Virus record (IMG/VR): IMGVR_UViG_3300036765_000035
DNA length: 64,000 nt
Source of the DNA: a virus
Reading direction: 5' to 3' (one strand)
The notes beneath the pieces were generated by a model. It was not told the origin of the DNA. It saw only the letters and a list, made by a program, of their open reading frames with translations, and did no database searches. How positions within the stretch are numbered: position 1 is the first letter of the stretch; every line of letters starts with the position of its first letter. A program made the translations under genes and the position numbers. Positions 23,501 through 61,413 of the stretch are shown in pieces.

Positions 23501-26500
23501 TTTGCATCATACACTGACCTTACATTTATATTTGCAGAATTACTAGAATTCCAAAATGGTGGCAATAATTCATCAGACTTATATCCATCAACAGTTGTTG
23601 AATTATCAATATTAACTGAAAAATAAGTAAATGTATTTAATATTTGACCTGCTAACCCTGTCCCATATGTTTCATATGCATCTTCTTCAGCATCATTTAT
23701 AAATGTTGTTGTACTGACTATTCCCTTGTCTAATGGAATTATTCCATTTAAAATATTAACCCACATTTGTTCTTTCCAATATCTATCAACAAATGGGTCA
23801 TCATTCAAATATTCCTCATCCCACCATTCAGGTTTATTATTATAATTTTGTAACATCCAAGGTTCTTTATGTGGGTATGGTGTGTTATATACCTTTTCAT
23901 ACAATGCTTGCCATGAACCACCAACATCATTTGATATAGTTCCTGTCAATGGATGTGTTTGTATTTGAGTATATGAATAATTCCATGTAAATGGGTCATT
24001 TTGCCTATAATAATTTAAATTACTCAATGGATTATCTATTCCAATATTTTTATAATATTGAATAAATTGTTCATATGATAAATTGTTATATTTTACATCT
24101 GATAATATTGAGTCAAAATCAAATTGACTCACGACATTAAAATCAACAACATCATATAATTTCTTTTCTATTTGATATAATGCTTCCTGTAGTATTAAAT
24201 TTAAATTTACTTCTTCCCAAATATCTAATGATAAATTATACCTATATAATCTACGTGTGTTTTTATTGGTATTTGTTCTAATAATATAATCACCATTTTC
24301 TAATGGTTGACCGTTTAATAATAAAGGAAAACTTTCATTATCATCTAATATTGTAAAACTTTCATTATTTACAACACTAAATATATCATTGTACATTAAT
24401 TCAAGTTCAGGTTTTTCATAACCAACTTTACTTCTATGACCATCATGATGAATTAACTCAACTTCTTGTGTTTTTTCATCATATATTTTATGTGGAACAT
24501 GTTTTTTACTCATTCCAAATATTACTGGTGATGCAATCCAATTTCTAACACCATTATTTCCATTATAAGATGTTGTGTCACCAAACCATTTATTTAATCT
24601 ATCATTATTTTCAAATTCATCTATTAAATATTCAACTATTGCATTTTGCATAGAAATAACACCGTCATATGATAAATCTGTCAACATATTTCTTGCTTTT
24701 GTTCTGAAAGTCTCTATTATATGTTGCTTTTGGAACATATATGTATCATGTGCAAAGTTTATTAATTCTATAGGTGTCACATTTTTTACAAAAATTGATG
24801 ACAATAAAGTATCAAAACCATCATTATGTTCCTTTATTGTTCCACCAATACCATAATTCACATCATCATTCACATAAAAATAATCTATGTCATTTAATAA
24901 AGATACAATGGGTTTTTGTGATGATATAATTGTTGTAAAATGACGATATAATTCTGTAAGTTTTACATCTCTTCTATTTTCATGTTCAACATTGAAATAC
25001 ATTTGATTCGGCAAATTCCAATTTTCATCTTCATCTTTGTAAGGTTTATATTCTTCAAGATTTTTCCCCTTCTTCCATACAGTTTGTATTTCATCATTTA
25101 CTAGGGAAATGTCTTTATATCCATATATTTCATTTGTATTTTCATTTATTAATAAATTCTCAAATGTATAATCTCTTTTAATTGTATCATGTTCTATTCT
25201 TTTCAATATATTCAGATTTAATGGATATTCTGATGATTCTTTAAATCTAAATATTTCATTTGCAAAAAGTTGAGGTTCTTCAAAAACATCAAATATTCTA
25301 AAAATAGGATATTGGTGTATTTCTGTTTTTGTTTGTTCAATTTTTTTAAAATTTGTTAAGTTGTATAATTCAATCCCTGTTGGTGTGTTTACTTCAACAT
25401 GTCTTTTACCTGATTCTTCAAGAGCGTATTCTCCTACTTCAACTCTAACTCTATCTCTTTCTCCTTTTACAAAAACATCATCATCAAATGTAATCCCTGA
25501 AACATAGATATTATCATCACTTAATTCAGTAAAATTGCCATATTGTCTGACATCATTTATATATACTCTGATATCTCCTTCTTGATAGTCCTCTATCAAA
25601 CATTTATCTCTTAACCTTATATCAATTGATGATGGAAACACAACAGTTTTTGCATAACCATCTGTATCATATACGCATTCAATATAATTATAATTTGTGA
25701 CATATTCATATTTATGTACTGGATTTACTCCAATATTCAAATATGAACTTAAAAATGGGTTAACTTCTGGTGTTATACTTGTTGGTATTACTTCTTTAAT
25801 TCCTAATAATTTCCAATGTTCTAAATGACCTTCAAATATATCTCCCCTTGATGTATATTTTGGTGTAATTGATGAGCCAATTGGTTTATCTGTTATATCA
25901 ATCAAAGCTTCTTTTAATGTTATCTCAATTCTATCTATGCTGTATGATGAAATAGACTGAATTGTATATTGTCCACTATTTAATTCAAAATCTGATAATA
26001 TTATGTAATCCCCTATGTTAGATTCATCTACAAAAAGTCCATATTTTCTTGAAAATCGTATTGTATTTTTATCAATTAATTCAAATTCTTCGTTTCCATT
26101 ATTTACAATGTTTAACAATTCAAATAATTTTGGCTCATTGTCAATTTGAACATAATCACTTAAAGATGTTTTCCTATATTCCCATTCTTTTACAGAATAT
26201 GCAACATGTGTTAATTCCAAATATGGTGAATATTCGATAATAGGCATTTGTGCCTTTACTTTTCCTGTGAATGTTTTTAATTGTGATTTATGTTTCCACT
26301 TATTTTGTTCTGCCCAATCATTTGTTGGAAAACTATCAATTGTATGTTTCCCATTAGATAACAAGGAAAATGTTGTAAAATTCTTTATGATGATATTCCA
26401 AGATACACCATCCCATTGAAGTATATCATCAGTTACATCATTCCAATATACATCATTTATCTCAGGTGATATTGGTGCTGTGCTTGATTTTGTATTATCT

Positions 26501-27867
26501 ATTAAAAATTTTCTATAAACAAAATAATCAAATTTTCCGTCGGTAAAAAAGAATGGCAAGTTTGATGTCCACCACAATTGATTTATAGATGAGTAACCAA
26601 AAAATTCACGTTCTCCTATATTTGGTCCTGATGTTATAACAACAACATCACCATCATTAACAATGCTTAAATCAACAACAGTGTCATTCATTGAAATATT
26701 AGAAAAAAGGACTTCACCTCTTGTTGATTCTAATATTACTTGTTTTTTATTCCATAAAATTTCACCAATATTACTTTCTTTAAAACTTGTAAATTTATTT
26801 GAATAATTATTACACACATAGTTTTTTTCACCTTCTATTTCAAGTAAGTGGGGTGATAATGTAATTGTTGTATCAGTTAATGATGATATTTCTTCATTAA
26901 CTGTAATCGTTGTTAAATTTGTTAAAACATCATAAGTTGATTCTTTTACACTCCAAAACGTTAGTACACTATTTGATGATACCGAAGATGCGAATACATA
27001 CCCATTTATTAACAGTTTTGTTAAATCATTCGATATTTTAATCGTTTTATCAATGTCATTATATGAAATAATTTTTTGTGTGGTGTTTACAACATATTGC
27101 ATATTAAACTCTGATGGCATTACTCTACCACTAGTAGTATCAAAAAATATTTCTGTTTGTGTTGTTGATGGATTATATACAACATTTAAAACTTCATATA
27201 TTTCAACATCTCTATCACTATTTGAACATGCCAATATGTTTCCTATATTTGCAAATGAAGTTTTATTTCCATTTATACAGATTTTATTTAAATTATAATC
27301 ATGTGCAACTATTGTTTCATTTGGTAATACATCTGTTACAGCTCTATTTGTTTCTAATAACCTTGCATTTGACCAAGTACACAAATTTTTAATTGTTATG
27401 TATTGTGGAACATCATTAAAAGATGACACATCCCAATAATAATTTTGATAATTAACTATTTTATCAATATCAATTGGTGGGACAAAGTTGAATTGTGTTG
27501 AATTTCCCCATGATGAAAAATTATCTAAATCAACACCTGTTCTCTCTATACGTGTTAAAAAATCTTCAAATGACATAAAATTATCAACATCACCAATTTT
27601 TGTATGCAATACTGGTTGTAATTGATTATTTTGTCTAAATGTGTTAATTTCTGTTATAGGGAATTCATTAGGGGAAGCTATATTATATTCTTCTCCTATT
27701 AATCCAATAATTCTTTGATACTCTGGTTTTGAAAAAACTCTGTTATATAAATTATGATTTATTGTTTCAACTAATTTTGTTCTATTAACACTAGGTAATA
27801 GATTATTTAAATCTGTTCTAACTTTTTTATAATCTGATAAATTTTTGTCTTGCACGGATTTCCCCAA
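17503..27867 (-). CDS. Giant (3454 aa) baseplate/tail-fibre protein with a C-terminal Pro/Thr/Ser-rich linker and a distal domain
   Basis: Single uninterrupted ORF after the gp6-like gene. PT linker [22 protein letters not shown]... lies about 85 aa before a roughly 260-aa C-terminal domain. Confidence 0.6.
18290..18540 (-). repeat. Imperfect tandem DNA repeats (ggtgttggtgtaggtgtatta... units) encoding the Pro/Thr/Ser linker of the giant protein
   Basis: cggtgttggtgtaggtgtatta occurs twice about 60 nt apart, with many degenerate copies. Confidence 0.7.
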
Positions 27868-34101: not shown

Positions 34102-37041
34102 CTATTCCATTGATGATGCTTGTCCTGCTATATCGTCTGTTAATTTTGACATTAAATCATCTGATTTTCTTTTATATGCTAATGCTTTCAATTCATCTTC
34201 TTTTGTCAAATCATTTTCGATTGACTTAATTTGATTTTCTGTAATAACTTTAATATACGCTGATGTTGTTTTCATATAATCTAACATCAACTTTTCCCTT
34301 TCTTCTGTTTCAGAATTTTTTAATGATGATATATCAATCTCATAATTTAATAATGTTTTTCCATCTTGTTGTGTAATAATTGGTTTTCCATTTTGAATTA
34401 TGGGTGTACCAAGATTTGTAAAATCTATATATTCATTATTTAACATTTCTTGAATGTTAGAATTTCTTGGATTCATAATATCTTTTACATTTTGTGGTAA
34501 CATTCCCATTAAGTGTTCAACTCGTTGCGAATTTGTCATACTAAATAATTTATCATATTCTTGTTGATTAAAATATTTTGACATTAATTCTGTTTCACTC
34601 ATTTCCCCTGTTGCTACCATTATTCTTTCTTTTTTTGATGCTAAATTGTGTACAACATCTCTTTTTTGGTCAAGTAACTTATCTTCATATGATTTTTCTC
34701 CGAATGTTTTAGCAACACTTTCACCTAACCATGTTCCTATATTCTTTAAAGTTGAGTCACCCCCTGTAGCTCTACCGATTGCATCATCTAAAAGAAGTGT
34801 TATCCCACCCCATTTTAACATGGTTCTCAAAATTCCTCCACCACCTCCACCTCTTGGTGCATTTTTTGGTGAATTTTTTGGATTAGCTCCTTCTGTTGTT
34901 ATTGGTGGAATACCTCGTTGTGCCATTTTTTTCGTTAAATATAGTTCTGCTATACCACCCATTGCACCAAAAATACCTGCACCCATTTTTCCTATAGGTG
35001 ATTTTAAAAACCCTGATGTATTTTCTGCAATTTGGTTTAATAACTTTATTGCGTTTGAGTGTTCACCAAGTGCCTTTTCCATTGTTTCATCAAAGCTTCC
35101 ATTAACTGAATTTATTAATCCTGATGTTTTATTATTAAATGCGTTTGCATCTGTTTCTCCAAACATTCCTGCATTTTCCATTAAAGTAGAAATATATTGT
35201 TCATCTGGTGTTCCTGAAACTTTATTTATTGACTCAAGATTTGCTTTTTGTAATACTTTTATTACGTTAAGTGCTGTTGACATATCTGTTTCTGATACCC
35301 CAACACCTCTCATTCTGTATGCCCTAAGTGCTATATCAATATCTTCTTGTGTTAATCCATTTCCTGATTTTCCACCTTTAAAGTTTTTAAAAGCATCAGT
35401 ATCTTTATTTAATGCAAATAAATTTTTGGCAAACTCAATTTCAACCAATCTTGTTGAAAATTTTTTGTTTGTAGTAGATGTTGCAAAACTTTGAGCAAAT
35501 TCTAATATTTGTGGCATAGTCAATGCAAAATTTTTCCTTAACTCAAGTGATGTTTTTGTTAATATTCCTAATCCTTTATTACTTTTATCAATTCTACTAA
35601 AAAATTCCTTGAATCCTTTATCTTTACTCAAATTTGCAAACATTTGATTTATTTCTTCAGGTATCATATCTGTCATATTTCCTAACACCTGTATATCACG
35701 TGTATACTCATTTAATGCTTTGATTGATGGCTCAACGCCCAAATTCTTAAATGTGTTTAACTCGTTTCCAAAAAATTTAACTGCATCCCCTCCAATTATA
35801 TTAAACTTATCTCTAATTAAATCTAAAGATGAATTAAACTTTTCATTGTTTAAAACATTTGCTGATTGTATTTCACCAGTAAACATTCTTAACATTGTTC
35901 TATTTGATGAAATTGCTTGTGCCATTTCTGATTGGCTTGCACCTCTATCTGCTGAACCAATTGCAAAATCCAATAAAGAACCTGCATCAATACCTCTCAT
36001 ACCTGTACGTTGCATAGCAGACAAATCTGAATATTCTTGTTTGACACCATATGCAATTGCTCCTTTACCTAAATTACCTATAACACCCTTTAATTTATCT
36101 TTAAGATTATTTGTTTCATTTTTTATAGTTTTAGATAATTCCAATGTTGAATCTACAAAATCTCCCATTGCATTTTCTGCTTCTTGTTGCATTTTTTTGG
36201 TACTTTCCATTCCAGCTTTGTTTAACTCAATTTTATCAATTTGTGATTTTTTAAATATTTTTGAGAAACTATCAAAGTCATGTCCCATATCATTGAACAT
36301 TTCTTTTAAATCAAACCCTTCATCTTTTAAATTATCAAAATTCTCACCCAATATTTCAATTTGTTTTTTAGTAACAATTCCACTTTGTTGGATTCCATTC
36401 ATTATCTTAATAACATTTTCAAATCCTTTTGTTATTTCCCCCGTAGATGACATTAATTCACTAACATTATTATTAGTTTCTTTCATTTTATTTTTAAAAT
36501 ATTCAGACATTTTTTCACCAGCTTTTATGGATGACATTTTAAAACTCTTTTCCATGTTATCCATTGTACGTGAAATATTTCTTTCCATTGTTTTACTTGG
36601 AATGACATTGATTACTGAATCTTTTACTTTTTTGAATATATCCTTGAAACCATCACCAAAAGTTTTATTTAATTTTTCAGCATTTCTTGAAGCTTCAATA
36701 TTTATTTTTTTCCATTCTGCATTATGTTTTTTGAGATTTTCTCTCATTTTTCCTAATCCATCGTCATCTTTTTTAGTATCATTTTTGCTATATGATGTTC
36801 CATTATCTGAACCATTATTCATATTTGCAAAGTAACCAGAAAATTTAGATATTGTGTTATCCAATCTTCTAAGTATATTAATTAATTCAATTTGCTCGTT
36901 TGCCATATTATTTTCCATTAAATTGACGATATTAGTAGTATTTATTTCATTAACAACTAGATGAAAATTGTCATTTTCATTTATTTTGTAAAACCATAAA
37001 TATTTGTAAAATACAACATTGGTACAATATATGAACAACAA
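34102..37041 (-). CDS. Tail tape measure protein (coiled-coil-rich, 979 aa) at the head of the baseplate/tail operon
   Basis: Long alpha-helical, charged composition with a Gly-rich segment (GGGGGGILRTMLKWGGITLL). Position immediately upstream of the hub gene. Confidence 0.5.
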   Translation of the reverse strand: MLFIYCTNVVFYKYLWFYKINENDNFHLVVNEINTTNIVNLMENNMANEQIELINILRRLDNTISKFSGYFANMNNGSDNGTSYSKNDTKKDDDGLGKMRENLKKHNAEWKKINIEASRNAEKLNKTFGDGFKDIFKKVKDSVINVIPSKTMERNISRTMDNMEKSFKMSSIKAGEKMSEYFKNKMKETNNNVSELMSSTGEITKGFENVIKIMNGIQQSGIVTKKQIEILGENFDNLKDEGFDLKEMFNDMGHDFDSFSKIFKKSQIDKIELNKAGMESTKKMQQEAENAMGDFVDSTLELSKTIKNETNNLKDKLKGVIGNLGKGAIAYGVKQEYSDLSAMQRTGMRGIDAGSLLDFAIGSADRGASQSEMAQAISSNRTMLRMFTGEIQSANVLNNEKFNSSLDLIRDKFNIIGGDAVKFFGNELNTFKNLGVEPSIKALNEYTRDIQVLGNMTDMIPEEINQMFANLSKDKGFKEFFSRIDKSNKGLGILTKTSLELRKNFALTMPQILEFAQSFATSTTNKKFSTRLVEIEFAKNLFALNKDTDAFKNFKGGKSGNGLTQEDIDIALRAYRMRGVGVSETDMSTALNVIKVLQKANLESINKVSGTPDEQYISTLMENAGMFGETDANAFNNKTSGLINSVNGSFDETMEKALGEHSNAIKLLNQIAENTSGFLKSPIGKMGAGIFGAMGGIAELYLTKKMAQRGIPPITTEGANPKNSPKNAPRGGGGGGILRTMLKWGGITLLLDDAIGRATGGDSTLKNIGTWLGESVAKTFGEKSYEDKLLDQKRDVVHNLASKKERIMVATGEMSETELMSKYFNQQEYDKLFSMTNSQRVEHLMGMLPQNVKDIMNPRNSNIQEMLNNEYIDFTNLGTPIIQNGKPIITQQDGKTLLNYEIDISSLKNSETEEREKLMLDYMKTTSAYIKVITENQIKSIENDLTKEDELKALAYKRKSDDLMSKLTDDIAGQASSME

Positions 37042-37960
37042 TAACGATAAAAATGAAGTTTTGGAAGTAATTAAAAAAATAAATCCGTTACTAGAAAAAA
37101 ATAAAATGCCCGGTCAACGTTTTCGTATGCCATCAAGGGGGTTATTTTATACTAACGGAGAATTAGCTGACACTGTTAAAGATGGTGAAGTTGAAGTTTT
37201 TCCAATGAAAACAATAGATGAAATTAATTTAAAAACACCTGATTTGATTTTTCAAGGAAATGTTATTGAACGTGTGTTTAAAAGGTGTATACCTGAAATC
37301 GTAAAACCTATGGAACTGTTATCCAATGATGTAGATTATTTAATGGCTGCACTGTGGAAAGTATCACATGGGAATAGTTTGCCTATAAAAACAACATGTG
37401 AATGTACAAACCACAAAACAACACGTGAATATACAATACCATTGGATAAGTTGCTTGCACAAAATACAGTTGAACTTGATAAAGATAAACTGTTATCAGA
37501 ATATAATTTTGAAATAACAAATCCTTCTACAAATGTTACATTAGATATTCAACTTAAACCAATTAAATATGATAATCTTGTTTCAACATATCAAACACAA
37601 TCACAAAATTTGGTTAAATATAATGATTTTACTGTTCCTGAAGGATTAGATGACGAAGAAAAAGAAAAATATACAAAAGAGATGGAAGAATCAATGGAAC
37701 ATTATATCAGTTTAATATTATCATCAATGATTGAATCAGTTGATGGCATCACTGACAGAGACAATATCGAAGAATGGGTGTTGGATTTACGTGTTCCTAT
37801 GAAAAAACAACTTTCAGAAAAAATTGAAAAGGTTTCTTCATGGGGTGTAAAATTTGATTACACCGTTAATTGTTTTGATTGTGGTAAACCAATTGATGTT
37901 TCACCAATGTTAAATCCTGTAAGTTTTTTTTCGCAATCCTCAAGTCAGACAGAAGGTTAA
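37019..37960 (+). CDS. Hypothetical protein with Cys clusters (possible zinc ribbon). The true start is probably ATG at 37031.
   Basis: CECTNHK ... CFDCGKP motifs. Divergently transcribed from the tape-measure gene. Confidence 0.4.
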   Translation: MVQYMNNNNDKNEVLEVIKKINPLLEKNKMPGQRFRMPSRGLFYTNGELADTVKDGEVEVFPMKTIDEINLKTPDLIFQGNVIERVFKRCIPEIVKPMELLSNDVDYLMAALWKVSHGNSLPIKTTCECTNHKTTREYTIPLDKLLAQNTVELDKDKLLSEYNFEITNPSTNVTLDIQLKPIKYDNLVSTYQTQSQNLVKYNDFTVPEGLDDEEKEKYTKEMEESMEHYISLILSSMIESVDGITDRDNIEEWVLDLRVPMKKQLSEKIEKVSSWGVKFDYTVNCFDCGKPIDVSPMLNPVSFFSQSSSQTEG

Positions 37961-37968: not shown

Positions 37969-38136
37969 ATGACCTCTGATTTGAGGAATCAAATTAGAAT
38001 GCATATTTATGAGGTTGTACAATTAACATATTTTATGAACGGTGCAATATCATATTCTGAAATGATGGAAATGTCTCTTGCAGAGAAACAAATTGTTTCT
38101 GATTTTATAAAACAATTAATGGAAAGCAAAAAATAA
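37969..38136 (+). CDS. Small ORF (55 aa) not in the supplied track, translationally coupled (TAATG) to the next gene
   Basis: ATG at 37969, translated MTSDLRNQIRMHIYEVVQLTYFMNGAISYSEMMEMSLAEKQIVSDFIKQLMESKK. The stop overlaps the start of 38136. Confidence 0.3.
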   Translation: MTSDLRNQIRMHIYEVVQLTYFMNGAISYSEMMEMSLAEKQIVSDFIKQLMESKK

Positions 38137-38858
38137 TGAACTATAATCTTATAACAATTGACCCATCTATAAAAAGCAATGGGGTTGTTGTTAATGGTAA
38201 CATCATTAGTGTTGTTGATGAGAGTAAAGCATTTGGAAAAACTAAATTAAATAAATGGTTTGAAATATGTGATAAAATTGTTGATTTTATTTACATAAAC
38301 TATGATTATCCAAAAAATTATTCAGAATCAGAATCATATAAATTAATTAAATATTCAGAAACTGTAAATGTTTTATTTGATAAAGTTTCTGAATATTTAA
38401 TTGATGGTGTACCAACAATATTTGCAATAGAAGGGTATAGTTATAATTCAGAAGCAGGTCATTTAATTGATTTAGTCACATATTCAACGCTTCTTAGATT
38501 AAAATTTAAAGAAATTGCAGATTATATTTACATTTTATCCCCTTCAACATTAAAATTGGAATCAGCAAAATTAACATATAAACCGACTAATATTGGTAAA
38601 CGTGTTGATAAATTTATATATCAAAACAATGAAGGTATAAAAGGAGGTTCATTTACAAAACATCACATGTATAAAGCTTTAATTGAAAATGAAAATATTA
38701 ATGATGAATGGAATGATATGCTTAAAGAATATGCTTCTGATATTTTGAGTAAATCTAAGATTGTAAAACCGATTGAAGATATCAATGATTCAAAATTATT
38801 ATATGAAATTATTAAAAATAGAATATTTTTAGAAAAAAAGCTTGACATTTCATTTTAA
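38136..38858 (+). CDS. Hypothetical protein, possibly a RuvC/A22-like resolvase fold
   Basis: N-terminus LITIDPSIKSNGVVV resembles the RuvC motif I (IxGIDPG...G). FAIEGYSY could be the second acidic motif. Weak. Confidence 0.3.
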   Translation: MNYNLITIDPSIKSNGVVVNGNIISVVDESKAFGKTKLNKWFEICDKIVDFIYINYDYPKNYSESESYKLIKYSETVNVLFDKVSEYLIDGVPTIFAIEGYSYNSEAGHLIDLVTYSTLLRLKFKEIADYIYILSPSTLKLESAKLTYKPTNIGKRVDKFIYQNNEGIKGGSFTKHHMYKALIENENINDEWNDMLKEYASDILSKSKIVKPIEDINDSKLLYEIIKNRIFLEKKLDISF

Positions 38859-38950
38859 TCAATATTATATTACACATATTACTCAAATTGGATTAGAGTT
38901 AATTGATGATAACGGATTTCATCTTTAAGAAAGAATTTAAGAATATCAAA

Positions 38951-39016
38951 GAAAACATTAAAGAAATTTTAAGAACAATTAAAGAAAACATTAAAGAAAT
39001 TTTAAGAACAATTAAA
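38951..39016. repeat. Two perfect tandem 33-nt repeats (gaaaacattaaagaaattttaagaacaattaaa) followed by degenerate copies extending to about 39080
   Basis: Identical 33-mers at 38951-38983 and 38984-39016. Further diverged units follow (agaatttttaagaacagtaaagaacattaaagaaagaaattttaagaacattaagaaactt). Confidence 0.8.
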
Positions 39017-39140
39017 GAAAGAATTTTTAAGAACAGTAAAGAACATTAAAGAAAGAAATTTTAAGAACATTAAGAAACTTTATACAATTAAAAAATTTTT
39101 TGGAACAGAAAAATAAAGGGATTTTATTAAAATTTGTTAA

Positions 39141-39385
39141 TTCTGAACAGGCTGCATATTCACTTATTAGTGTTTATCGGACAAGATGTTTGATTTAGGA
39201 AATGGTCAAACCACGTTATATCTTAAAGGTCTGTGCAAGGTTAATATTAGTGTTAAAAATTCGGAATTATTGTTGCTAATATTAATCGTCTTGCTAAAAC
39301 ATCATAACAAATCCTATTGTTATGAAAGTCTATTAATTATGTGGATTTTAATTGAAATGACAGCCGAATATGTTTAACTTTTTTA
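39141..39385 (+). ncRNA. Candidate structured non-coding RNA: an island of locally elevated GC content inside a 1-kb AT-rich intergenic region, ending in a T-run
   Basis: Blocks ggctg/cagcc and catattc/gaatatg at the two ends. The region ends cttttttattttttttttctg. Only a junk-like 63-aa ORF overlaps it. Confidence 0.3.
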
Positions 39386-39594
39386 TTTTTTTTTTCTGTT
39401 CATAAGCATATCAATCCCAATGGTAATATGGGATAAATTTACTGAGTTTGGATTGGGTAATTTGCTCTATAAACATTAAAAATAATTTTTTTATAAGAAC
39501 ATTATTTTTAATTTTTATAAAAAAATGGGGGGGATATCATTATATATACTTTTATATTTTTTTCAAAATAAATAAAAAAACCAAATATTCATCA

Positions 39595-39631
39595 AATATT
39601 AAAATATGAGCGAAGCGAATATTTTAATATT
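39595..39631. other. Perfect 13-bp inverted repeat (AATATTAAAATAT / ATATTTTAATATT) closing an 11-nt loop (gagcGAAGCga) containing the hyper-stable GCGAAGC mini-hairpin motif
   Basis: Verified by reverse-complementing the right arm. The loop is the only GC-rich stretch nearby. Confidence 0.7.
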
Positions 39632-39827
39632 GCAAAATTTTTTGAAAAAAAAAATTGCATTCATTTAAAAAAATATAGCCTTTGGCAAAACATGGTTTGT
39701 AAACAAACCAGTTTTAGATATTAGTTGCCTTTAAAATAAAAAATATTTATATATAAATTATATTGATTAATAACTTTATATATGTTAAACTATGAGATAT
39801 ATTAATATTAATTGAGGAATTACATTA

Positions 39828-41441
39828 ATGACAGATAAAAAAGATATAATGTCATTTTGGCCCATGCCAAACTTTAAACCACGTAAAAGTCAAGTTGAAG
39901 CACTTGAATGGATACAATCACTTCCAGAACATATCAAATATATTTTGGTTGAAATACCTGTAGGTGGTGGTAAATCACCTCTTGCATTAAATGTGAGTGG
40001 TTGGTTATCAGGTTTAAATGGTAATGGGTTCATTATAACAACTCAAAAAATATTACAAAAGCAATATGAAGATTCATTTGATTCACAATTGTTAAAAGCA
40101 GTATATGGAAAAGCAAATTATACATGTTCATCAAAAAACACAACATGTGATATTGGTTCAGATATAAAACCACAATGCGATAATTGTCCACATAGAAATG
40201 CAATTGGTAAAGCAATTAAATCACCTAATATGTTGTTAAATTATACACTTGCATTGTTGTTTTTTATGCAACATGATAAATTGGGATTAAAAAAACGAGA
40301 TGTAATTGTTTTTGATGAATGTCATACATTAGAAAACCATTTGACTGAATTTGGTTCAGTTAACATTACAATGAAAAAATGTATTGATTTAGATATTGTT
40401 TTTAAACCATGTACATCTATGAATGAAGCATTCAATTGGATAAATGAAACATATTATAGTGCTGTTTATGATTATGTGGAAAAACTCCATAATCAATATC
40501 AAGAAATATCTGATAAAGTATATTTAAATAATGCTGTATTAACCCGTGATGACAAAAAGATTATTATGAGTTACTTAAAATGGCAAAAACATTTTGATTC
40601 TTTACAAGTGTTATTAACAACAAATAAAAAAGAAATATTCGAAAATTATGTATTAGTTAATGATAAAGTTTCATTTAAATTTAAACAATTATATGGGAGT
40701 AATGCATTTCATCAAATAGTCAAACCAATGGCAAATAAATTCATGTTTATGTCATCAACAATATTAAATAAAGATGCATTTTGTAAAGATTTAGGTATTA
40801 ACCCAGATGAAGCAGAAATCATATCAATTGATTCAGAATTTGATTGTGATAATAGACCAGTAATTTATAAACCAGTTGCAAAAATGAATTATGGGTGGAA
40901 TACTGATGAAAGAAAGAAAGATAGACAATCTATGATTGAAGCAATCATGAATATTTGTGAAGAACATAATGATGAAAATGGAATTATACATACTGGAAGT
41001 TTTCAAATTTCTGATTGGTTGGTAAAAGATTTGAGAAATATGATTCCACATAGAATATTACATCATGGTACAGATTCAGGTAAATCGAGAGATGAAGTAA
41101 TAAACGAGTATATAAATGAATCTGATACTCCGACAATATTATTATCTCCTAGTATAACAGAAGGGTTAGATTTAGTTGATGATAAAGGAAGGTTTGCTAT
41201 ATTTGCAAAAGTACCATATCCGTACATGGGTGACCAATGGGTTAAGAAAAGAATGACACTTTCAAATGAATGGTATCAACGACAAGCTATGATAGCAATA
41301 ATTCAAGGTGGTGGACGTGTGGTTCGTTCTAAGGAAGATTGGGGTGTAACGTATATACTTGATTCAAGTTTTGGTTTTTTATATAGTAAAATGCATAATA
41401 AGATACCAAAATGGTGGAAACAAGCATATTTTAAATTTTAA
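39828..41441 (+). CDS. DinG/XPD (Rad3)-family ATP-dependent DNA helicase with an Fe-S cluster domain
   Basis: Walker A VGGGKSPLAL. Four-Cys cluster CSSKNTTCDIGSDIKPQCDNCPH lies between Walker A and the DEAH box (VFDECH). Motif VI QGGGRVVRS. Confidence 0.75.
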   Translation: MTDKKDIMSFWPMPNFKPRKSQVEALEWIQSLPEHIKYILVEIPVGGGKSPLALNVSGWLSGLNGNGFIITTQKILQKQYEDSFDSQLLKAVYGKANYTCSSKNTTCDIGSDIKPQCDNCPHRNAIGKAIKSPNMLLNYTLALLFFMQHDKLGLKKRDVIVFDECHTLENHLTEFGSVNITMKKCIDLDIVFKPCTSMNEAFNWINETYYSAVYDYVEKLHNQYQEISDKVYLNNAVLTRDDKKIIMSYLKWQKHFDSLQVLLTTNKKEIFENYVLVNDKVSFKFKQLYGSNAFHQIVKPMANKFMFMSSTILNKDAFCKDLGINPDEAEIISIDSEFDCDNRPVIYKPVAKMNYGWNTDERKKDRQSMIEAIMNICEEHNDENGIIHTGSFQISDWLVKDLRNMIPHRILHHGTDSGKSRDEVINEYINESDTPTILLSPSITEGLDLVDDKGRFAIFAKVPYPYMGDQWVKKRMTLSNEWYQRQAMIAIIQGGGRVVRSKEDWGVTYILDSSFGFLYSKMHNKIPKWWKQAYFKF

Positions 41442-54132: not shown

Positions 54133-54206
54133 AGGTGAGTGGTGTAATGGTAGCACAGCGTTCTCCAAAAGCGTTAATGGGGGTTCGATTCCTCTCTCAC
54201 CTGCCA
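54133..54206 (+). tRNA. tRNA-Trp (anticodon CCA), with encoded 3' CCA
   Basis: Hand-folded cloverleaf. Acceptor AGGTGAG/CTCACCT 7 bp, U8, D-stem GTGT/GCAC, anticodon stem GCGTT/AGCGT with wobbles, loop CTCCAAA, T-arm GGGGG-TTCGATT-CCTCT, discriminator G, CCA. Confidence 0.75.
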
Positions 54207-54221
54207 AAACAAAAACATTTC

Positions 54222-54875
54222 ATGAAAAAAATCAAACCAGAAAATTTTAAAATAGGTGATATATTCATTCAAGAGACAGATGGTATAACATTATATCGTT
54301 TAATACTTAATAAAAAACATGATAATAATATAGATTTTTTTATCTTTGATGATATTTTTGGATTTAACAATATTTCATTAGATTCAAATAAAGAATATGC
54401 TGTAATTTCAAATAAAACAAAAGTTAACAAAATAAAAGAAAAATATAGAAAAAGATTATTAGATAATTATAAACATTGTTTACAGTGTATATCATTATTT
54501 AATAAGCATAAACATTTATTAGATAATGGTACACAAAAAATCAAAAAATTTAAAGAATTAGAAACTGGTGATTTGTTTGACTCTGGATTTGTTTTGAATG
54601 TAGAGAAAGAAATGTTTCTTGGATATAGAGTTGAATTTTTATATAATAATGAATCATTATATCATATGATAGGTGAATTACAAACATGTTCAATAATCTC
54701 ATCAAAAGAATTATTTGATGATTGTGATGATTCTGATGATGAAACTGAATACAATATTTTTAATGGAAACATTGAAAAAGTAAAAGAATTTAAGGAGTTA
54801 ATGGTAAAGGTTATTGAACTTACTCATAATAATTATACAACATTATATAATTTAACAGAAATAGAAACAGAATAA
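54222..54875 (+). CDS. Hypothetical protein. Start moved to the first ATG downstream of tRNA-Trp.
   Basis: In-frame Met (MKKIKPENFKIGD...) at 54222. The upstream part of the annotated ORF overlaps the tRNA. Confidence 0.4.
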   Translation: MKKIKPENFKIGDIFIQETDGITLYRLILNKKHDNNIDFFIFDDIFGFNNISLDSNKEYAVISNKTKVNKIKEKYRKRLLDNYKHCLQCISLFNKHKHLLDNGTQKIKKFKELETGDLFDSGFVLNVEKEMFLGYRVEFLYNNESLYHMIGELQTCSIISSKELFDDCDDSDDETEYNIFNGNIEKVKEFKELMVKVIELTHNNYTTLYNLTEIETE

Positions 54876-54876
54876 A

Positions 54877-55425
54877 ATGTATTATGCAGGTATAGGCTCT
54901 AGAAAAATACCAAAAGTTATAAAAGATTTAATGGTAGTCATTGGATATGCAATGGCAGAAAACGGTTACGTCTTACGTTCTGGTGGTGCAGAAGGTGCAG
55001 ATACAGCATTTCAAAAAGGTTGTCAACAATGGTGTGATGACAACAATGTGCCATATTGTAAAAGACAAGAAATATATTTACCTTGGAATAATTTTAACAA
55101 TTTAAAAGTTGATAAGCATAAAGGAATAACAACAGAAACATTTTGGTTAGCACATGATTTGGTTTATGAAACTCACCCTAATGCAAAAAATTTATCACCA
55201 TCAGTAATGAAATTAATGGTAAGAAATGTTGCACAAATTTATGGCTTAAACAATACCCCATCTGATTTGATAATATGCTGGACACCTGATGGTGCAACAA
55301 AAACAACCACAAATGAAACAGGTGGAACAGGACAAGCATTAAGATTGGCATTAATAGATAACATTCCAATAATAAATTTAAAATTAAAAAAACACATAAA
55401 ATTGATTGAAAAAATATTAATATAA
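54877..55425 (+). CDS. DprA/Smf-like Rossmann-fold (SLOG superfamily) protein
   Basis: GIGSRKIPKVIKDLMVVIGYAMAENGYVLRSGGAEGADTAFQKG follows the DprA pattern (GSR......A..LA..G..VVSGLA.GID.AAH.GA). Confidence 0.45.
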   Translation: MYYAGIGSRKIPKVIKDLMVVIGYAMAENGYVLRSGGAEGADTAFQKGCQQWCDDNNVPYCKRQEIYLPWNNFNNLKVDKHKGITTETFWLAHDLVYETHPNAKNLSPSVMKLMVRNVAQIYGLNNTPSDLIICWTPDGATKTTTNETGGTGQALRLALIDNIPIINLKLKKHIKLIEKILI

Positions 55426-55433
55426 ATTAAAAC

Positions 55434-55462
55434 TTGTAAAAAAATTTTTTAAATGATATAAT
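55434..55462 (+). promoter_or_regulatory. Sigma70-like promoter (TTGTAA, 17 nt, TATAAT) upstream of the SPFH gene
   Basis: TTGTAAaaaaattttttaaatgaTATAAT, then the RBS AGGAG, then ATG at 55495. Confidence 0.5.
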
Positions 55463-55494
55463 TTTCTAACTTATTAATACTTAGGAGTAAAAAA

Positions 55495-56217
55495 ATGAAT
55501 CATTTAATTGGTATGGGAATATTTTTATTTATATATGCAGTTGCATATATTTTGTTTTTAAAAAATCATAGACAATATAATATAATTGCATTGCCATTAG
55601 TAATGGCATTAATTGTGTCATTGGGTTTTAGTGGAGCAACATTCTATGCAGAACCCGGTTTTATATATCATGTACGAACAATTACAGGAACTGAAAAAGT
55701 AATCAGTGATGTAGGGTATAATTTCCATTGGTTTGGGAGATATAACTCATGGAAAAGAGCGATGACTGTACAATCAACAGACATTGGAAATAATAATGAT
55801 ACTGATAAATTGACAGCAGAAAATACTGATTCAACTGTATTGTCAGCCATGTTACGTCCACAAAAAATAGTATTTCTTGACCAAGTTGATGCATTGATTC
55901 AATCATCTGTTAGGTTCAAAATTCCTTCAGAAGAAGAAGCTTTTTTAAGATTGGTACATGAATACAGAACACCAGATAATCTATTAAGGGCAACTTTAAT
56001 TCCAGCATTTAGAGAAACATTACAGGCAACAGCATCTTTAATGACAGCAGAAGAATATTATTCTGGTGGAAGAACAGAGTTTAGTAATGAATTTGAAACA
56101 CAGATGAATGATGGAATTTATATTGTTAAAAGGATTGAAAAAATCGAAAAAAATGTTGTAACATCAACAAGTTCCGCAAATGCATCGAAGGGTTGTAACT
56201 GTTTCATATTAATATGA
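55495..56217 (+). pseudogene. 5' portion of an SPFH/band-7 (stomatin/flotillin/HflK-like) membrane-protein gene, interrupted by the IS607-like element. The last ~10-15 codons read into the insertion.
   Basis: N-terminal TM helices, then band-7 core blocks (VRFKIPSEEEAFLRLVHEYRTPDNLLRATLIPAFRETLQATASLMTAEEYYSGGR ... GIYIVKRIEKIE). The ORF ends a few codons after GIxV..V.I.xI, where SPFH proteins normally continue. Confidence 0.5.
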
Positions 56218-56267
56218 TAAATTTTATAGAAAATTATATTTAATTTGCAATTTATATAAATACAAGT

Positions 56268-56867
56268 ATGAATAAATTAATATCTTTACAAAAAACAAGT
56301 GAAATATTGTGTCTTTCTAAATGGGGAGTCCGAAGAACACCAGAATCAATATTGCCAGTTTATCGAACAGCAGGAGGACACAGAAGATATAAACTTCAAG
56401 ATGTACAAAAATTAATAGGAGAAGAAACTAAACTAATAAGTGATGACAATAATGTTGCCATTTATAGTAGAGTTTCTTCTCATGAACAAAAGAAATCAGG
56501 TGATTTATCACGTCAAAAAGACAGATTAATCAATTATTGCATTAATAAACAATATACAATTGTATCCAACCTCGAAGAGGTTGGTTCTGGTATGAATGAT
56601 AAAAGACCAAAACTGGTTAAATTAATTGATTTGGCATGTAAAGGTGAAATAAATAAAATAATAATTGAACACCGAGACAGATTAACCCGTTTTAATTTTA
56701 ATATTTTTAAATTATTTATGAAACACCATAATGTTACTATTGAGGTTATTAAAGAATCAGAAAAAATATCTTTTGAAGAAGAATTAGTATCAGATATAAT
56801 TTCATTGATGACATCATTTTCTGGAAAAATTCATGGGAAGAGAAGCCATAAAAATGTTAATAAATAA
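56268..56867 (+). CDS. tnpA: IS607-type transposase TnpA: MerR-like HTH fused to a serine recombinase (resolvase) catalytic domain
   Basis: HTH region SEILCLSKWGVRRTPE ... YRTAGGHRRY. Catalytic-serine motif AIYSRVSSHEQK. 199 aa, overlapping tnpB by 35 nt. Confidence 0.75.
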   Translation: MNKLISLQKTSEILCLSKWGVRRTPESILPVYRTAGGHRRYKLQDVQKLIGEETKLISDDNNVAIYSRVSSHEQKKSGDLSRQKDRLINYCINKQYTIVSNLEEVGSGMNDKRPKLVKLIDLACKGEINKIIIEHRDRLTRFNFNIFKLFMKHHNVTIEVIKESEKISFEEELVSDIISLMTSFSGKIHGKRSHKNVNK

Positions 56868-58074: not shown

Positions 58075-58579
58075 GTTTTATAGAACGGAAGAACAAGAAC
58101 TATTAGCAAATGCAAAAGGAAAAAGACAAGTTGCTGAAAGACAGGCACAAGCAAAAGTTGAACAAATTGAACGTACAACTAAAGCAGAAACCGAAAAACA
58201 ATTAGCAATTACAGAAGCTTTAAAAATTAAAGAAAAAGCAACAATTGAACAAGAAGCAGCTAAGATTCAACTAGAAAGAGACAAACTAGTTGCTCAATCC
58301 CAAAAAGTTCTTGCAGATGCTGAAGCGTATAAAAGAAATGCAATTATTAAATCAGATAATGCGTTACAACAAAAACTTGAAGCTGAAATAAAAATTCAAA
58401 AGGTTTGGGCAGATGCATTTGCTCAACGTAAAGTTCCTCAAACAATGTTTATAACAGGAAGTTCAGGTGAATCAGGTCATGTTGGTTCAAACAATGAGTT
58501 GCAAAATATGATGCAAATGATGACACTTCAAATGGCAAAAAATCTTGATAACGATAGAAAAGTTGTAAAAGATAAGTAA
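58043..58579 (+). pseudogene. 3' portion of the same SPFH/band-7 gene (C-terminal coiled-coil/flotillin-like region), downstream of the IS607-like element. The frame opens at 58034 inside the end of tnpB.
   Basis: AKGKRQVAERQAQAKVEQIERTTKAETEKQLAITEALKIKEKATIEQEAAKIQLERDKL is a band-7 C-terminal helical repeat. The ORF has no ATG and begins within the IS. Confidence 0.5.
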
Positions 58580-58630
58580 CATTATAAAAAAACAGATATA
58601 AATAATATGATATTAAACAATAATGGATAA

Positions 58631-60535: not shown

Positions 60536-60642
60536 AATTATTTTAAAAAAATATAAAAATGTAAGTTATTGAATTTAAATGAAATTTTTATATATTAGAA
60601 CATTTTTTTAATTTTTTTTTGAAAAAAATATAAATAAAAGTA

Positions 60643-61407: not shown

Positions 61408-61413
61408 ATTTTT

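What the first reader, a model, noticed from the sequence alone, without database searches (positions are those of the whole stretch)
38860..39830. About 1-kb non-coding region with tandem 33-nt iterons, a GC-enriched structured island and a GCGAAGC-loop hairpin. Candidate replication origin and/or ncRNA locus.
Two perfect 33-nt tandem repeats plus about three degenerate copies lie at 38951-39080. A roughly 240-nt island (39141-39385) has visibly higher GC than its surroundings, complementary terminal blocks and a terminal T-run. A perfect 13-bp-stem hairpin (39595-39631) has a loop containing GCGAAGC, the extraordinarily stable mini-hairpin known from ssDNA-phage origins. There is also an isolated G7 run at 39526-39532. 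All of this sits directly upstream of the DinG/XPD-type helicase gene. Iterons plus an AT-rich stretch plus a stable hairpin is the classic origin layout.
Basis: seen in the sequence. Interest (0 to 1): 0.55.

Follow-up and report, generated by a model that had tools for sequence, protein, structure and literature searches.

The report
New structured RNA gene, jumbo phage
The 1-kb gap in front of the helicase gene is mainly a previously undescribed, intricately folded non-coding RNA gene, with its own promoter, two pseudoknots, a conserved G-tract and a conserved capped hairpin; about twenty related giant phages share it, its job is unknown, and it is not a classic iteron origin.

Summary
The 969-nt gap (38859-39827) is non-coding. 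Its core (39105-39540) is an undescribed structured RNA. The same element lies on the + strand directly upstream of the DinG/XPD-like helicase in about 21 distinct jumbo-phage contigs whose proteins are only 40-65% identical. In the 5' domain, 47 base pairs are 84-89% paired, with compensatory changes at 39 pairs (slid controls 33-47%). These include a pseudoknot. A second pseudoknot in the 3' domain is 90% paired, with 5 of 5 pairs covarying. The T-run is a variable hairpin loop. The G7 run is the conserved 3' G-tract (AAAAUGGGGGAGGG in relatives). The GCGAAGC hairpin is a conserved module: AU stem, tandem GA, GNA-type loop. Consensus sigma70 promoters precede the RNA, and the helicase has its own promoter in most relatives. 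The 33-nt 'iterons' are specific to this phage, vary in copy number between samples, and lie in the RNA's leader. No Rfam family matches. Function is unknown. I favour a free-standing structured RNA. An RNA-II-like pre-primer at an R-loop origin is a serious rival; an iteron-type origin is unlikely.

The parts
38842..38871 (+). Consensus-like sigma70 promoter (TTGACA-18-TATATT). Proposed promoter of the RNA gene; it overlaps the last codons of the 240-aa ORF.
   Evidence: Best promoter match in the region, 11 of 12. A promoter of the form TTGACA-17-TATAAA (or close to it) lies in the equivalent position upstream of the RNA in nearly all relatives, and the leader motifs that follow (TGGATTA..ACGGAT) are shared with L099.
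38878..39132 (+). Transcribed 5' leader (inferred). It contains GGAUUA-type boxes (38889-98, 39118-32) and the repeat expansion.
   Evidence: Relatives have a 45-75 nt leader with a conserved GGAUUA/ACAA box between promoter and helix P1. The window's leader is about 190 nt longer because of the repeats.
38924..39112 (+). Tandem repeat array: two perfect 33-nt units at 38948-39013, plus degenerate copies. The core is AAAGAAATTTTAAGAACA.
   Evidence: Three perfect copies in the same phage from another sample (L094). Absent in relatives. Predicted to be unstructured as RNA. The last copies lie beyond the stop of the 47-aa ORF 38906-39049.
39083..39088 (+). Alternative weak promoter: -10 TACAAT, with TTAAGA at 39061-66.
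   Evidence: 9 of 12. Its position relative to the RNA body resembles that in L003, L004 and L015.
39133..39300 (+). 5' domain of the RNA.
- P1 pseudoknot: 39139-46 with 39261-68
- P2: 39147-53 with 39228-34
- P3: 39161-64 with 39169-72
- P4: 39184-93 with 39206-23
- P5: 39235-39 with 39290-94
- P6: 39240-50 with 39276-86
- Conserved single strands: GGCUGCA, UCGGA, AAAGGUC, CUAAAAC (39295-300)
   Evidence: Covariance model R1 scores 96-143 bits on its 17 seed sequences and 104-112 bits on L097 and L109, which were not in the seed.
39301..39413 (+). Variable middle domain.
- P8: 39303-10 with 39317-24
- P9: 39334-39 with 39349-54, with a UGGAU loop
- Conserved AGCCG: 39362-66
- P10: 39368-72 with 39407-11; its loop holds the T-run 39379-96
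   Evidence: Hairpins with covarying stems are visible in the alignments, and the window's MFE fold reproduces them. Length ranges from 17 to 129 nt among relatives. The T-run is not conserved.
39414..39533 (+). 3' domain.
- P11: 39414-19 with 39429-34
- Pseudoknot PK2: 39422-26 with 39439-43
- Conserved GAGUUUGG: 39444-51
- CAAUUU-type loop and pyrimidine tract: 39455-70
- AU hairpin P13: 39468-39519
- A-run plus G7 tract: 39520-33
   Evidence: Alignment A8 of 20 sequences. PK2 is 89.7% paired with 5 of 5 pairs compensated. The G-tract is invariant (GGGG at 4 columns). The pyrimidine-tract/G-tract helix is 80.6% paired but shows no covariation.
39534..39594 (.). AT-rich spacer (11% GC)
   Evidence: It is AT-rich in all relatives. 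No significant excess of direct repeats (P = 0.16 overall).
39595..39631 (+). Conserved capped hairpin: a 13-bp AU stem, tandem G.A/A.G, a GC/GC mini-helix and a GAA triloop (apex 39608-18).
   Evidence: The same architecture (stem / GA / 1-5 bp / GNA or GNNA loop / GA / stem) occurs in at least 13 of 20 relatives. It also occurs upstream of the helicase in the RNA-less L032/L067 and the divergent L053 and L068. It is unique in the window.
39678..39710 (+). Small GCC-N3-GGCAAAA hairpin (39678-91) and a terminator-like hairpin with a U-run (39693-39710 plus GTTTTAG).
   Evidence: z = -3.6. A GCC..GGCAAAA hairpin recurs in L023, L097 and L099.
39763..39830 (+). Candidate promoter of the helicase (TTGATT-17-TAAACT with an upstream TG), its SD (GAGGA) and its start codon (39828).
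   Evidence: Read from the sequence. It falls below the scan's threshold. Most relatives have clear TTGACA/TGnTATAAT promoters 30-60 nt upstream of the helicase start.

Best explanation
The gap holds an independent gene for a large structured non-coding RNA of a family not yet described.

Shown:
- A roughly 400-nt element (window 39105-39540) is conserved on the + strand at the same place in about 21 related jumbo-phage contigs.
- It folds into a 5' domain with a long-range pseudoknot (P1, between a 5' strand and the apical loop of the P5-P6-P7 arm), a variable middle domain, and a 3' domain with an H-type pseudoknot.
- The 3' domain ends in an invariant A-run plus G-tract.

Inferred:
- Host sigma70 RNA polymerase starts at the consensus promoter at 38842-71 (early expression).
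- It reads through a leader that, in this phage only, has been expanded by an unstable 33-nt tandem duplication, and then transcribes the RNA body.
- The G-tract pairs with the pyrimidine tract at 39461-70, closing the 3' domain.
- The transcript ends at or is stabilised by the capped hairpin at 39595-39631 and the following U-rich hairpins, upstream of the helicase gene's own promoter.

Most likely mode of action (inference): the RNA works in trans as a folded molecule, either as a scaffold or decoy for a phage or host protein or as an RNA-only assembly. It would act through its conserved unpaired motifs: GGCUGCA, UCGGA, AAAGGUC, CUAAAAC, GAGUUUGG and the G-tract.

The repeats are not iterons of an initiator-driven origin.

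My confidence that this is a real structured RNA gene is about 0.9. My confidence in the free-standing, trans-acting reading over the replication-primer reading is about 0.5-0.55.
For: Conservation
- Synteny hub - 240-aa ORF - gap - helicase - SbcC is kept in all relatives at 34-65% protein identity.
- Even so, the non-coding gap keeps nucleotide blocks.
- A sequence HMM finds full-length + strand hits in loci that were not used to build it, with E from 1e-6 to 1e-32.

Structure
- On the plain MAFFT alignment, 47 pairs are 83.8% paired against 33-47% when slid. 39 pairs have compensatory changes. The covariation score is 0.59 against at most 0.19.
- On the model-fitted alignment the figures are 88.8% and 0.70.
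- P5 is 100% paired with 5 of 5 pairs covarying. P1 is 93% paired.
- PK2 is 89.7% paired with 5 of 5 pairs covarying on a MAFFT alignment.
- L099 has lost both partners of P1 together.

Strand
- Invariant G.U pairs (17 of 17 at two P2 positions) would be A.C mismatches on the other strand.

Transcription signals
- TTGACA-17-TATAAA-type promoters lie upstream of the RNA in nearly all members.
- Separate promoters lie upstream of the helicase.

Not coding
- No family hits.
- Open frames differ in strand, frame and place among members.

Folding
- The window RNA has z = -3.2, with 0 of 100 shuffles as stable.

Not a known family
- No Rfam match at gathering thresholds or at E <= 1-10 in the window and relatives.
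Against: - There are no expression data. The transcript ends are inferred from consensus motifs only.
- The function is not established by any test here.
- The capped hairpin and the promoter persist in relatives that have lost the RNA body (L032/L067). The hairpin is therefore not merely this RNA's terminator.
- Its AU-rich stem and conserved GA/GNA apex are atypical for an intrinsic terminator.
- A conserved G-cluster followed by an AT-rich stretch and a + strand GNA-capped hairpin, next to replication and recombination genes and 2 kb from a transcription-divergence point, fits an RNA-primed origin at least as naturally.
- Only about 21 related sequences are available. The shuffle control is not a probability, and the structure was partly derived from the same alignment.
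- The G-tract partner shows no covariation.
Confidence: 0.55

Rival explanations
1. RNA-primed (R-loop) replication origin. The structured RNA is a pre-primer analogous to ColE1 RNA II. Its conserved G-tract makes a persistent rG:dC hybrid with the template. The AT-rich spacer (39534-94) is the unwinding element. Leading-strand synthesis proceeds rightwards, and the displaced + strand folds into the SSB-resistant GNA-capped hairpin. That hairpin serves as a single-strand initiation or helicase-loading signal. The neighbouring DinG-like helicase could act on the R-loop.
For: - The G-tract is invariant across GC contents of 25-48% and lies at the 3' end of the RNA.
- The spacer is AT-rich in all members.
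- The hairpin apex is + strand specific (tandem G.A, GNA loop, G.U) and is kept, even duplicated, where the RNA body is lost but the promoter remains (L032). This resembles a T4 oriF-type origin of promoter plus unwinding element.
- C-GNA-G mini-hairpins occur at primase and ssi sites of G4-type and RSF1010 origins (PMC13037366).
- T4 origins use promoter-derived R-loops, lie near points of transcription divergence, and are shut off by a helicase. T4 oriE has an early promoter and iterons (PMC3016281).
- The locus is 2 kb from the strand switch at 37.0 kb and lies among replication and recombination genes.
Against: - An R-loop primer does not obviously need two pseudoknots and many conserved unpaired motifs. 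T4 R-loop formation is sequence-independent.
- The RNA body is dispensable in some lineages (L028, L031, L032) and modular in L099.
- GC skew in the window simply follows gene orientation.
- In some relatives the triloop is in the opposite orientation: GCTTCGC in L026, L031 and the second hairpin of L003.
- There is no direct replication evidence.
Confidence: 0.25
2. Cis-regulatory leader of the helicase gene. The structured RNA would be a large sensor (riboswitch-like or protein-binding), and the capped hairpin an attenuator that controls read-through into the helicase.
For: - The RNA is invariably adjacent to the helicase and in the same orientation.
- A hairpin with nearby U-runs lies between them.
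- The hairpin is kept upstream of the helicase even without the RNA.
Against: - The helicase has its own sigma70-type promoter downstream of the hairpin in most members.
- There are 150-250 nt and further hairpins between the RNA and the start codon.
- There is no alternative pairing between the RNA's 3' end and the hairpin.
- RNA-less relatives keep the helicase.
Confidence: 0.1
3. Iteron-type origin. The 33-nt repeats would bind an initiator, next to an AT-rich region and a stable hairpin.
For: - The tandem repeats are real and have an 11-nt sub-period, about one helical turn.
- AT-rich DNA and a stable hairpin are nearby.
- T4 oriE has iterons.
Against: - The repeats are absent from all relatives, although the rest of the locus is conserved.
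- Copy number differs between samples of the same phage, and assemblies break inside the array.
- The array lies between a conserved promoter and the RNA body.
- The spacing of the cores is irregular: 33, 25, 34, 38.
- No Rep or initiator-like gene is adjacent.
- No significant direct repeats occur in the spacers of relatives.
Confidence: 0.04
4. The repeat array is an RNA decoy, namely a ToxI-like type III antitoxin mimic, or it encodes a small repeat protein (47-aa ORF 38906-39049; 58 aa in L094). Under this reading the rest of the gap is unrelated to it.
For: - The array consists of tandem A-rich units of about 33 nt directly downstream of a strong promoter.
- Copy-number change is by whole units, which recalls pseudo-ToxI expansion in phage phiTE (own knowledge).
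- The unit is 11 codons, and a gene caller called the ORF.
- The N-terminus MITDFIF.. faintly resembles the N-termini of the ORF found at this position in relatives.
Against: - No Rfam antitoxin family matches at E <= 10.
- The repeat RNA is predicted to be unstructured.
- The repeat copies continue out of frame beyond the stop codon.
- The peptide has no significant similarity to anything tested; best E is 0.34.
- The ORF is not conserved in L099.
Confidence: 0.05

Closest known systems
Large 'ornate' RNAs of unknown function (GOLLD, ROOL, OLE; Rfam; cryo-EM in PMC12286853)
   Same: It is a large RNA of at least 400 nt with multiple helices and pseudoknots and many conserved unpaired nucleotides. 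It is phage-encoded, as GOLLD and ROOL often are, and lies in a phage that carries many tRNA genes. It looks like a free-standing gene with no known function. The P12 loop carries short palindromes (AAUU; AACUAGUU in L025, L026 and L029) that could mediate self-association.
   Different: There is no sequence or structure match to any of these families (cmscan). It is smaller than GOLLD. It has a fixed genomic position upstream of a DinG-like helicase. It has a 3' G-tract and a downstream capped hairpin. Oligomerisation was not tested.
ColE1 RNA II pre-primer and its origin (own knowledge: Itoh & Tomizawa 1980; Masukata & Tomizawa 1990)
   Same: A sigma70 promoter drives a folded RNA of about 0.5 kb. 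The RNA has a G-rich segment implicated in hybrid formation, and a strand-specific hairpin (pas/ssi) lies downstream on the displaced strand.
   Different: There is no homology, no antisense RNA I-type partner is evident, and no RNase H site is defined. The G-tract is at the 3' end rather than 265 nt upstream of the origin. The genome is a phage, not a plasmid. None of the mechanistic steps was tested.
T4 origins oriF/oriG (promoter plus unwinding element, R-loop) and oriE (early promoter plus 12-nt iterons) (PMC3016281)
   Same: The phage has a T4-type replication and recombination gene set (gp46/47-like SbcCD, baseplate hub). There is an early-type promoter followed by AT-rich DNA. The locus is close to a transcription-divergence point and next to a helicase. 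This phage also has direct repeats.
   Different: T4 origins are about 100 bp with no conserved RNA structure. The repeats here are not conserved. No replication data exist.
DNA mini-hairpins d(GCGNAGC) at G4-type and RSF1010 ssi sites and N4 virion-RNAP promoters (PMC13037366)
   Same: The apex C-GNA-G (GCGAAGC here; GGA, GCA and GUA variants in relatives) is the same motif.
   Different: Here the motif caps a long AU stem through tandem G.A pairs. The phage has dsDNA. No N4-like virion RNA polymerase was found; the 3453-aa ORF matches only a 'virion structural protein' family. With a 13-bp stem, an N4-type start site would fall inside the stem.
ToxI-type type III antitoxin repeat RNAs (compared for the repeat array only)
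   Same: Tandem repeats of about 33-36 nt downstream of a promoter, with whole-unit changes in copy number.
   Different: No match to Rfam antitoxin families, no predicted structure, and no toxin partner that could be tested.

Membership tests
Any Rfam 15 family (including GOLLD, ROOL, RNase P, tmRNA, 6S, group I/II introns, ToxI) | Covariance-model score at or above the family's gathering threshold | tested here: not met
   No match in the gap at gathering thresholds in the window or in 10 relatives. In the window's gap, only three weak matches, all far below their gathering scores (16.8-18.7 bits against 42-80; best E = 0.63); in 8 relatives, none inside the element at E <= 1.
Structured ncRNA (generic criterion) | Conserved base-paired helices supported by compensatory substitutions in homologues | tested here: met
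   5' domain: 39 of 47 pairs have compensatory changes, 84-89% paired against 33-47% when slid. 3' domain: PK2 has 5 of 5 compensated pairs and is 89.7% paired.
Structured ncRNA (generic criterion) | Transcribed as a discrete RNA | not testable with these tools
   Only promoter consensus matches are available, plus hairpins with U-runs. There are no expression data.
Iteron-type origin (plasmid or lambda-like) | An iteron array conserved, at least in position and number, among related replicons | tested here: not met
   The repeats are absent in all relatives and their copy number is polymorphic within this phage.
Iteron-type origin (plasmid or lambda-like) | A cognate initiator (Rep or O-like) gene next to the iterons | tested here: not met
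   The neighbours are a baseplate hub, a 240-aa protein with weak RuvC-like motifs, a DinG-like helicase and SbcCD.
Iteron-type origin (plasmid or lambda-like) | Replication initiates at the site | not testable with these tools
   No marker-frequency data. GC skew follows gene orientation.
ColE1/T4-type RNA-primed (R-loop) origin | A promoter whose transcript runs into an AT-rich unwinding element | tested here: met
   A promoter consensus is conserved. The spacer after the RNA is 11-38% GC, below each genome's average.
ColE1/T4-type RNA-primed (R-loop) origin | A persistent RNA-DNA hybrid and an RNA-to-DNA transition | not testable with these tools
   Only the conserved G-cluster on the non-template strand is seen.
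Intrinsic terminator (for hairpin 39595-39631) | A GC-rich stem immediately followed by a U-tract | tested here: inconclusive
   The scan did not list it. The stem is AU-rich, and U6 begins 8 nt after the stem. In relatives, U-runs follow within 0-10 nt in many but not all. The neighbouring hairpin 39693-39710 does meet the pattern.
N4-type virion-RNAP hairpin promoter | A 5-7 bp stem with a 3-nt purine-rich loop on the template strand, plus an N4-like vRNAP gene | tested here: not met
   The stem has 13 + 4 bp. Loop orientation is mixed among relatives. The giant ORF matches only a virion-structural PHROG, with no RNAP family.
Type III antitoxin (ToxI-like) repeat RNA | Repeat units that fold or assemble with a ToxN-type toxin, and a family model match | tested here: not met
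   No Rfam match. The repeat RNA has z = +1.1, i.e. unstructured. A toxin partner cannot be tested.

The most novel reading that the evidence does not exclude
The three conserved modules together would form a new kind of phage replication origin. The modules are a promoter-driven pseudoknotted RNA of about 400 nt, an invariant 3' G-tract followed by AT-rich DNA, and a + strand hairpin capped by tandem GA and a GNA loop. In this reading a large, specifically folded pre-primer RNA (functionally like ColE1 RNA II) seeds a G-tract-anchored R-loop. The displaced strand then presents an SSB-resistant mini-hairpin for primase or helicase loading. The adjacent DinG/XPD-like helicase would act on the R-loop.
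Probability: 0.25. Interest if true: 0.85.

Novelty: categorically new. Interest (0 to 1): 0.7.

Why it matters
Structured RNAs of several hundred nucleotides with multiple pseudoknots are rare. Those that have been understood have almost always turned out to be ribozymes, ribonucleoprotein cores or, recently, self-assembling RNA cages.

This one is a new family at the sequence and structure level: none of 4227 Rfam models matches it. It is confined to a clade of roughly 300-kb phages related to XacN1 and the 'huge phages'. It sits at a fixed place beside the replication and recombination genes, and it travels with two further conserved elements, a G-tract and a GNA-capped hairpin.

If it is a trans-acting RNA, it adds a new class to the short list of large phage RNAs and gives a defined target for structure determination. 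If it is a pre-primer, it would identify the first replication origin of this jumbo-phage group and a plasmid-like priming mechanism in a virus.

Caveat: 'new' refers to the RNA family. The general category, a phage-encoded structured ncRNA of unknown function, is known.

Tried and rejected
1. Known RNA family. Rfam at gathering and permissive thresholds, on the window and 18 relatives, found nothing.

2. Close relatives among deposited phages. blastn of the region and of two relatives' RNAs found only helicase-coding matches or nothing.

3. Homology of the syntenic non-coding gap of the cultured phages XacN1, Xoo-sp13 and RAS14.
- A few shared words are visible (GTTAATTCTG, CTAAAAC, a G-run).
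- Neither nhmmer nor the covariance model with filters off detects them.
- Left unresolved.

4. Presence in bacterial genomes. 9 pattern hits, which is the number expected by chance. None has the 5' domain.

5. Metagenome pattern scan. It added one member, L109.

6. Lineage-specific iterons in the spacer between the G-tract and the hairpin. They looked suggestive by eye but are not significant (P = 0.16).

7. Small ORFs of 47, 63, 53 and 32 aa.
- No family hits (63- and 53-aa ORFs) and no conservation across the family (all four).
- The only exception is the nearest relative, L097, where the nucleotide sequence itself is conserved.

8. The small ORF as a remnant of the 330-470-aa ORF present in relatives. 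The N-termini look alike, but no significant alignment was found.

9. G-tract partner. A pyrimidine-tract helix is plausible (80.6% paired) but shows no covariation, and the sequence is low-complexity.

10. Both are invariant, so the pairing is untestable. The alternative P2 pairing has covariation.

11. N4-like hairpin promoter. No vRNAP was found.

12. Fold of the 240-aa neighbour. The single-sequence model was too poor to use (pLDDT 37). hhalign to E. coli RuvC matched only the N-terminal IDPS motif.

13. The first helicase-based locus search found nothing. An alignment-based search worked.

Full report
**Context.** The window is an AT-rich (about 26% GC) fragment of a large myovirus-like phage.
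- Structural genes lie on the minus strand up to 37.0 kb.
- Then, on the plus strand, come a T4-type baseplate hub gene (37019-37960), a 55-aa ORF, a 240-aa ORF (38136-38858), the 969-nt gap, and a DinG/XPD-like helicase (39828-41441).
- SbcC- and SbcD-like genes follow on the minus strand, and a tRNA cluster lies at 54-63.7 kb.
- Relatives are contigs of roughly 300 kb and the cultured jumbo phages XacN1, Xoo-sp13, RAS14 and CM1, plus several 'huge phage' records.

**Observation.**
- There are two perfect 33-nt units (38948-39013) with degenerate flanking copies.
- GC rises modestly at 39100-39250.
- A T-run lies at 39379-96.
- The G7 run is at 39527-33, one base off the reported position.
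- A perfect 13-bp hairpin lies at 39595-39631 with the loop GAGCGAAGCGA.
- The repeats and the hairpin exceed chance within the window. The G-run and the GCGAAGC word do not on their own.

**The gap is conserved as non-coding DNA.**
- The order hub - 240-aa ORF - gap - helicase - SbcC is kept in 19 IMG/VR loci and in the cultured phages.
- Relatives have either 700-900 nt without ORFs, or an extra fast-evolving 330-470-aa ORF followed by 600-700 nt without ORFs.
- Proteins are only 34-65% identical, yet the gaps share nucleotide blocks.
- An HMM built from eight gaps recovers full-length, + strand hits directly upstream of the helicase in ten further loci found independently through the helicase.
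- It also recovers hits in L097 and L099 (65% and 61% helicase identity) and in L109.
- In total there are about 21 distinct members, with genome GC from 25 to 48%.
- No ORF is conserved in them.

**It is a structured RNA: the 5' domain.** In the 5' domain (window 39133-39300) I defined 47 pairs in 8-9 helices.
- On the plain MAFFT alignment they are 83.8% paired, against 33-47% when the partners are slid. 39 pairs show changes on both sides, and the covariation score is 0.59 against at most 0.19.
- On the model-fitted alignment the figures are 88.8% and 0.70.
- P5 is 100% paired with all five pairs covarying.
- P1 pairs AAUUCUGA (39139-46) with UCGGAAUU (39261-68). The latter lies in the apical loop of the P5-P6-P7 arm, so P1 is a pseudoknot. 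It is 93% paired and has UA/CG/AU exchanges.
- L099 has lost both the P1 5' strand and the whole P6-P7 arm. That co-loss is what the pairing predicts.

**It is a structured RNA: the 3' domain and the strand.**
- In the 3' domain (39414-39533), the loop of P11 pairs with the sequence just downstream: GGUAA with UUACU here, GGUGG with CCACU in L018, GACAG with CUGUC in L035.
- This H-type pseudoknot is 89.7% paired with 5 of 5 compensated pairs on a MAFFT alignment.
- Two P2 positions are G.U in 17 of 17 sequences, so the fold is specific to the + strand.
- The window's RNA is more stable than all 100 shuffles (z = -3.2), and its MFE fold reproduces most helices.
- Caveats: the sequences are related, the structure was partly derived from these alignments, and the shuffle counts are not probabilities.

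- The 'GC island' is the 5' and middle domains.
- The T-run sits in the terminal loop of P10 (AUAUG/CAUAU). That loop ranges from a few to about 90 nt in relatives and is not conserved.
- The G7 run is the window's version of an invariant motif, AAAAAUGGGGGAGGG, at the 3' end of the RNA. It can pair with the pyrimidine tract after the conserved CAAUUU loop, enclosing the AU hairpin 39468-39519. That helix is 80.6% paired without covariation, so it remains an inference.

**The hairpin is a conserved module.**
- It is a long AU-rich stem, then GA on both strands (tandem sheared G.A), then 1-5 Watson-Crick pairs, then a GNA or GNNA loop. Examples are GAGCGAAGCGA, GAACGAAGUGA, GAACGGAGUGA, GAGGCACGA, GAGGUACGA and GAGCGGCAGCGA.
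- The mini-helix covaries (GC to AU).
- The motif occurs once in the 64-kb window.
- It recurs upstream of the helicase even in the RNA-less L032/L067 (two copies) and in the divergent L053 and L068.

**Transcription signals.**
- Nearly every member has a TTGACA-17-TATAAA-type promoter 60-90 nt upstream of P1.
- Nearly every member also has a second sigma70-type promoter between the hairpin and the helicase start.
- The RNA therefore looks like its own early transcription unit.
- In the window the best promoter (TTGACA-18-TATATT, 38842-71) and the leader motifs after it match those of L099.
- The distance to the RNA body is about 190 nt longer in the window, because the repeat array is inserted there.

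**The repeats.**
- They are absent from all relatives.
- The same phage assembled from another sample has three perfect units instead of two, and two short-read assemblies break inside the array.
- The core resembles the adjacent conserved leader box: AAAGAAAUUUUAAGAACAAU against AAAGGGAUUUUAUUAAAAU.
- Core spacings are 33, 25, 34 and 38, and the last copies lie beyond the stop of the 47-aa ORF that the perfect units happen to keep open.
- I read the array as an unstable tandem duplication of leader sequence. It is not a set of iterons and not a gene, although a decoy or small-protein role is not excluded.

**What the RNA does.**
- No known family matches.
- It is not found in 185,579 reference bacterial or archaeal genomes beyond chance pattern hits.
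- Two readings fit. (a) A free-standing folded RNA. This is supported by two pseudoknots, many invariant unpaired motifs, modular loss of a peripheral arm, and loss of the whole body in some lineages. (b) An RNA-II-like pre-primer of an R-loop origin. This is supported by the invariant G-cluster followed by AT-rich DNA, the + strand GNA-capped hairpin of the type found at primase or ssi sites (PMC13037366), the persistence of promoter and hairpin without the RNA body, the position among replication and recombination genes 2 kb from a transcription-divergence point, and the T4 precedents (PMC3016281).
- I favour (a) at roughly 0.5-0.55 and give (b) about 0.25. A cis-regulatory leader gets about 0.1. 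The iteron-origin, decoy and ORF readings together get under 0.1.
- None of the functional steps was tested. Expression mapping, marker-frequency and hybrid mapping, and in-vitro structure work would decide between them.

**Verdict.** The finding is real and better than ordinary. It marks a new family of large structured phage RNA with two associated conserved elements. The 'iterons plus AT-rich plus hairpin origin' reading is not supported in that form.

Noticed in passing
L020 6313-7009 (Xoo-sp13), L022 6216-6899 (XacN1), L021 6189-7008 (RAS14): The cultured relatives have a syntenic non-coding gap of 685-820 nt upstream of the helicase. It contains hairpins that covary between phages (for example GGUAC..GUACC against GGUGU..ACACC). 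A C6 run (L020 6526-35, AAACCCCCCG) is perfectly complementary to a G6 run 360 nt downstream (6891-6900, CGGGGGGTTT). This is probably another, or a strongly diverged, structured RNA. It is not detected by my HMMs or covariance model.
   Followed up: partly
L001 4711-5895, L004 4688-6103, L008 4696-5871, L026 723-1700, L022 5160-6215 and others: A fast-evolving 330-470-aa ORF family lies between the 240-aa gene and the RNA in most relatives, including XacN1 ORF314 and Xoo-sp13 gp285. No significant Pfam or PHROG match (only sub-threshold hits, E > 5e-4). It is absent from the whole 64-kb window. The window's repeat array occupies its place.
   Followed up: partly
window 38136-38858: The conserved 240-aa neighbour has invariant IDPS and IEGYSYS motifs and a weak PHROG hit to RuvC-like resolvases (E = 1e-3). 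It may be an RNase-H-fold nuclease. No PDB or NCBIfam match was found, and the single-sequence AlphaFold model was unusable (pLDDT 37).
   Followed up: partly
window 17503-27867 (minus strand): A giant 3453-aa ORF among the structural genes matches only PHROG 10938, 'virion structural protein' (E = 4.5e-51). No RNA-polymerase family was detected.
   Followed up: partly
L032/L067 2050-2510: This relative lacks the RNA body but keeps a consensus promoter. It has two copies of the GA-apex hairpin (GAACGTAGTGA) and a (GCTTTT)n microsatellite upstream of the helicase.
   Followed up: no
window 39455-39467; L025, L026 and L029 in alignment A8, columns 71-104: The conserved loop after GAGUUUGG carries a palindrome: AAUU in most members and AACUAGUU in the L025/L026/L029 group. 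This is a possible kissing-loop self-association site.
   Followed up: no
L099 2354-2722: This member lacks the P1 5' strand and the entire P6-P7 arm (P5 is capped by a 5-nt loop) but keeps the rest of the RNA. It is a natural minimal variant.
   Followed up: partly
protein P0115: One helicase homologue is 882 aa and carries homing-endonuclease and intein-type domains (PF05204, PF05203, PF14528). It is an intein-containing version of this helicase in a relative.
   Followed up: no
window 54133-63695: A cluster of 10 tRNA genes (Trp, Glu, His, Ala, Pro, Tyr, Arg, Lys, Phe, Asn) lies on the + strand.
   Followed up: no
window 39678-39710: Downstream of the capped hairpin lie a small GCC-N3-GGCAAAA hairpin, also seen in L023, L097 and L099, and a separate terminator-like hairpin with a U-run. 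The latter is palindromic, so it was scored on both strands.
   Followed up: partly
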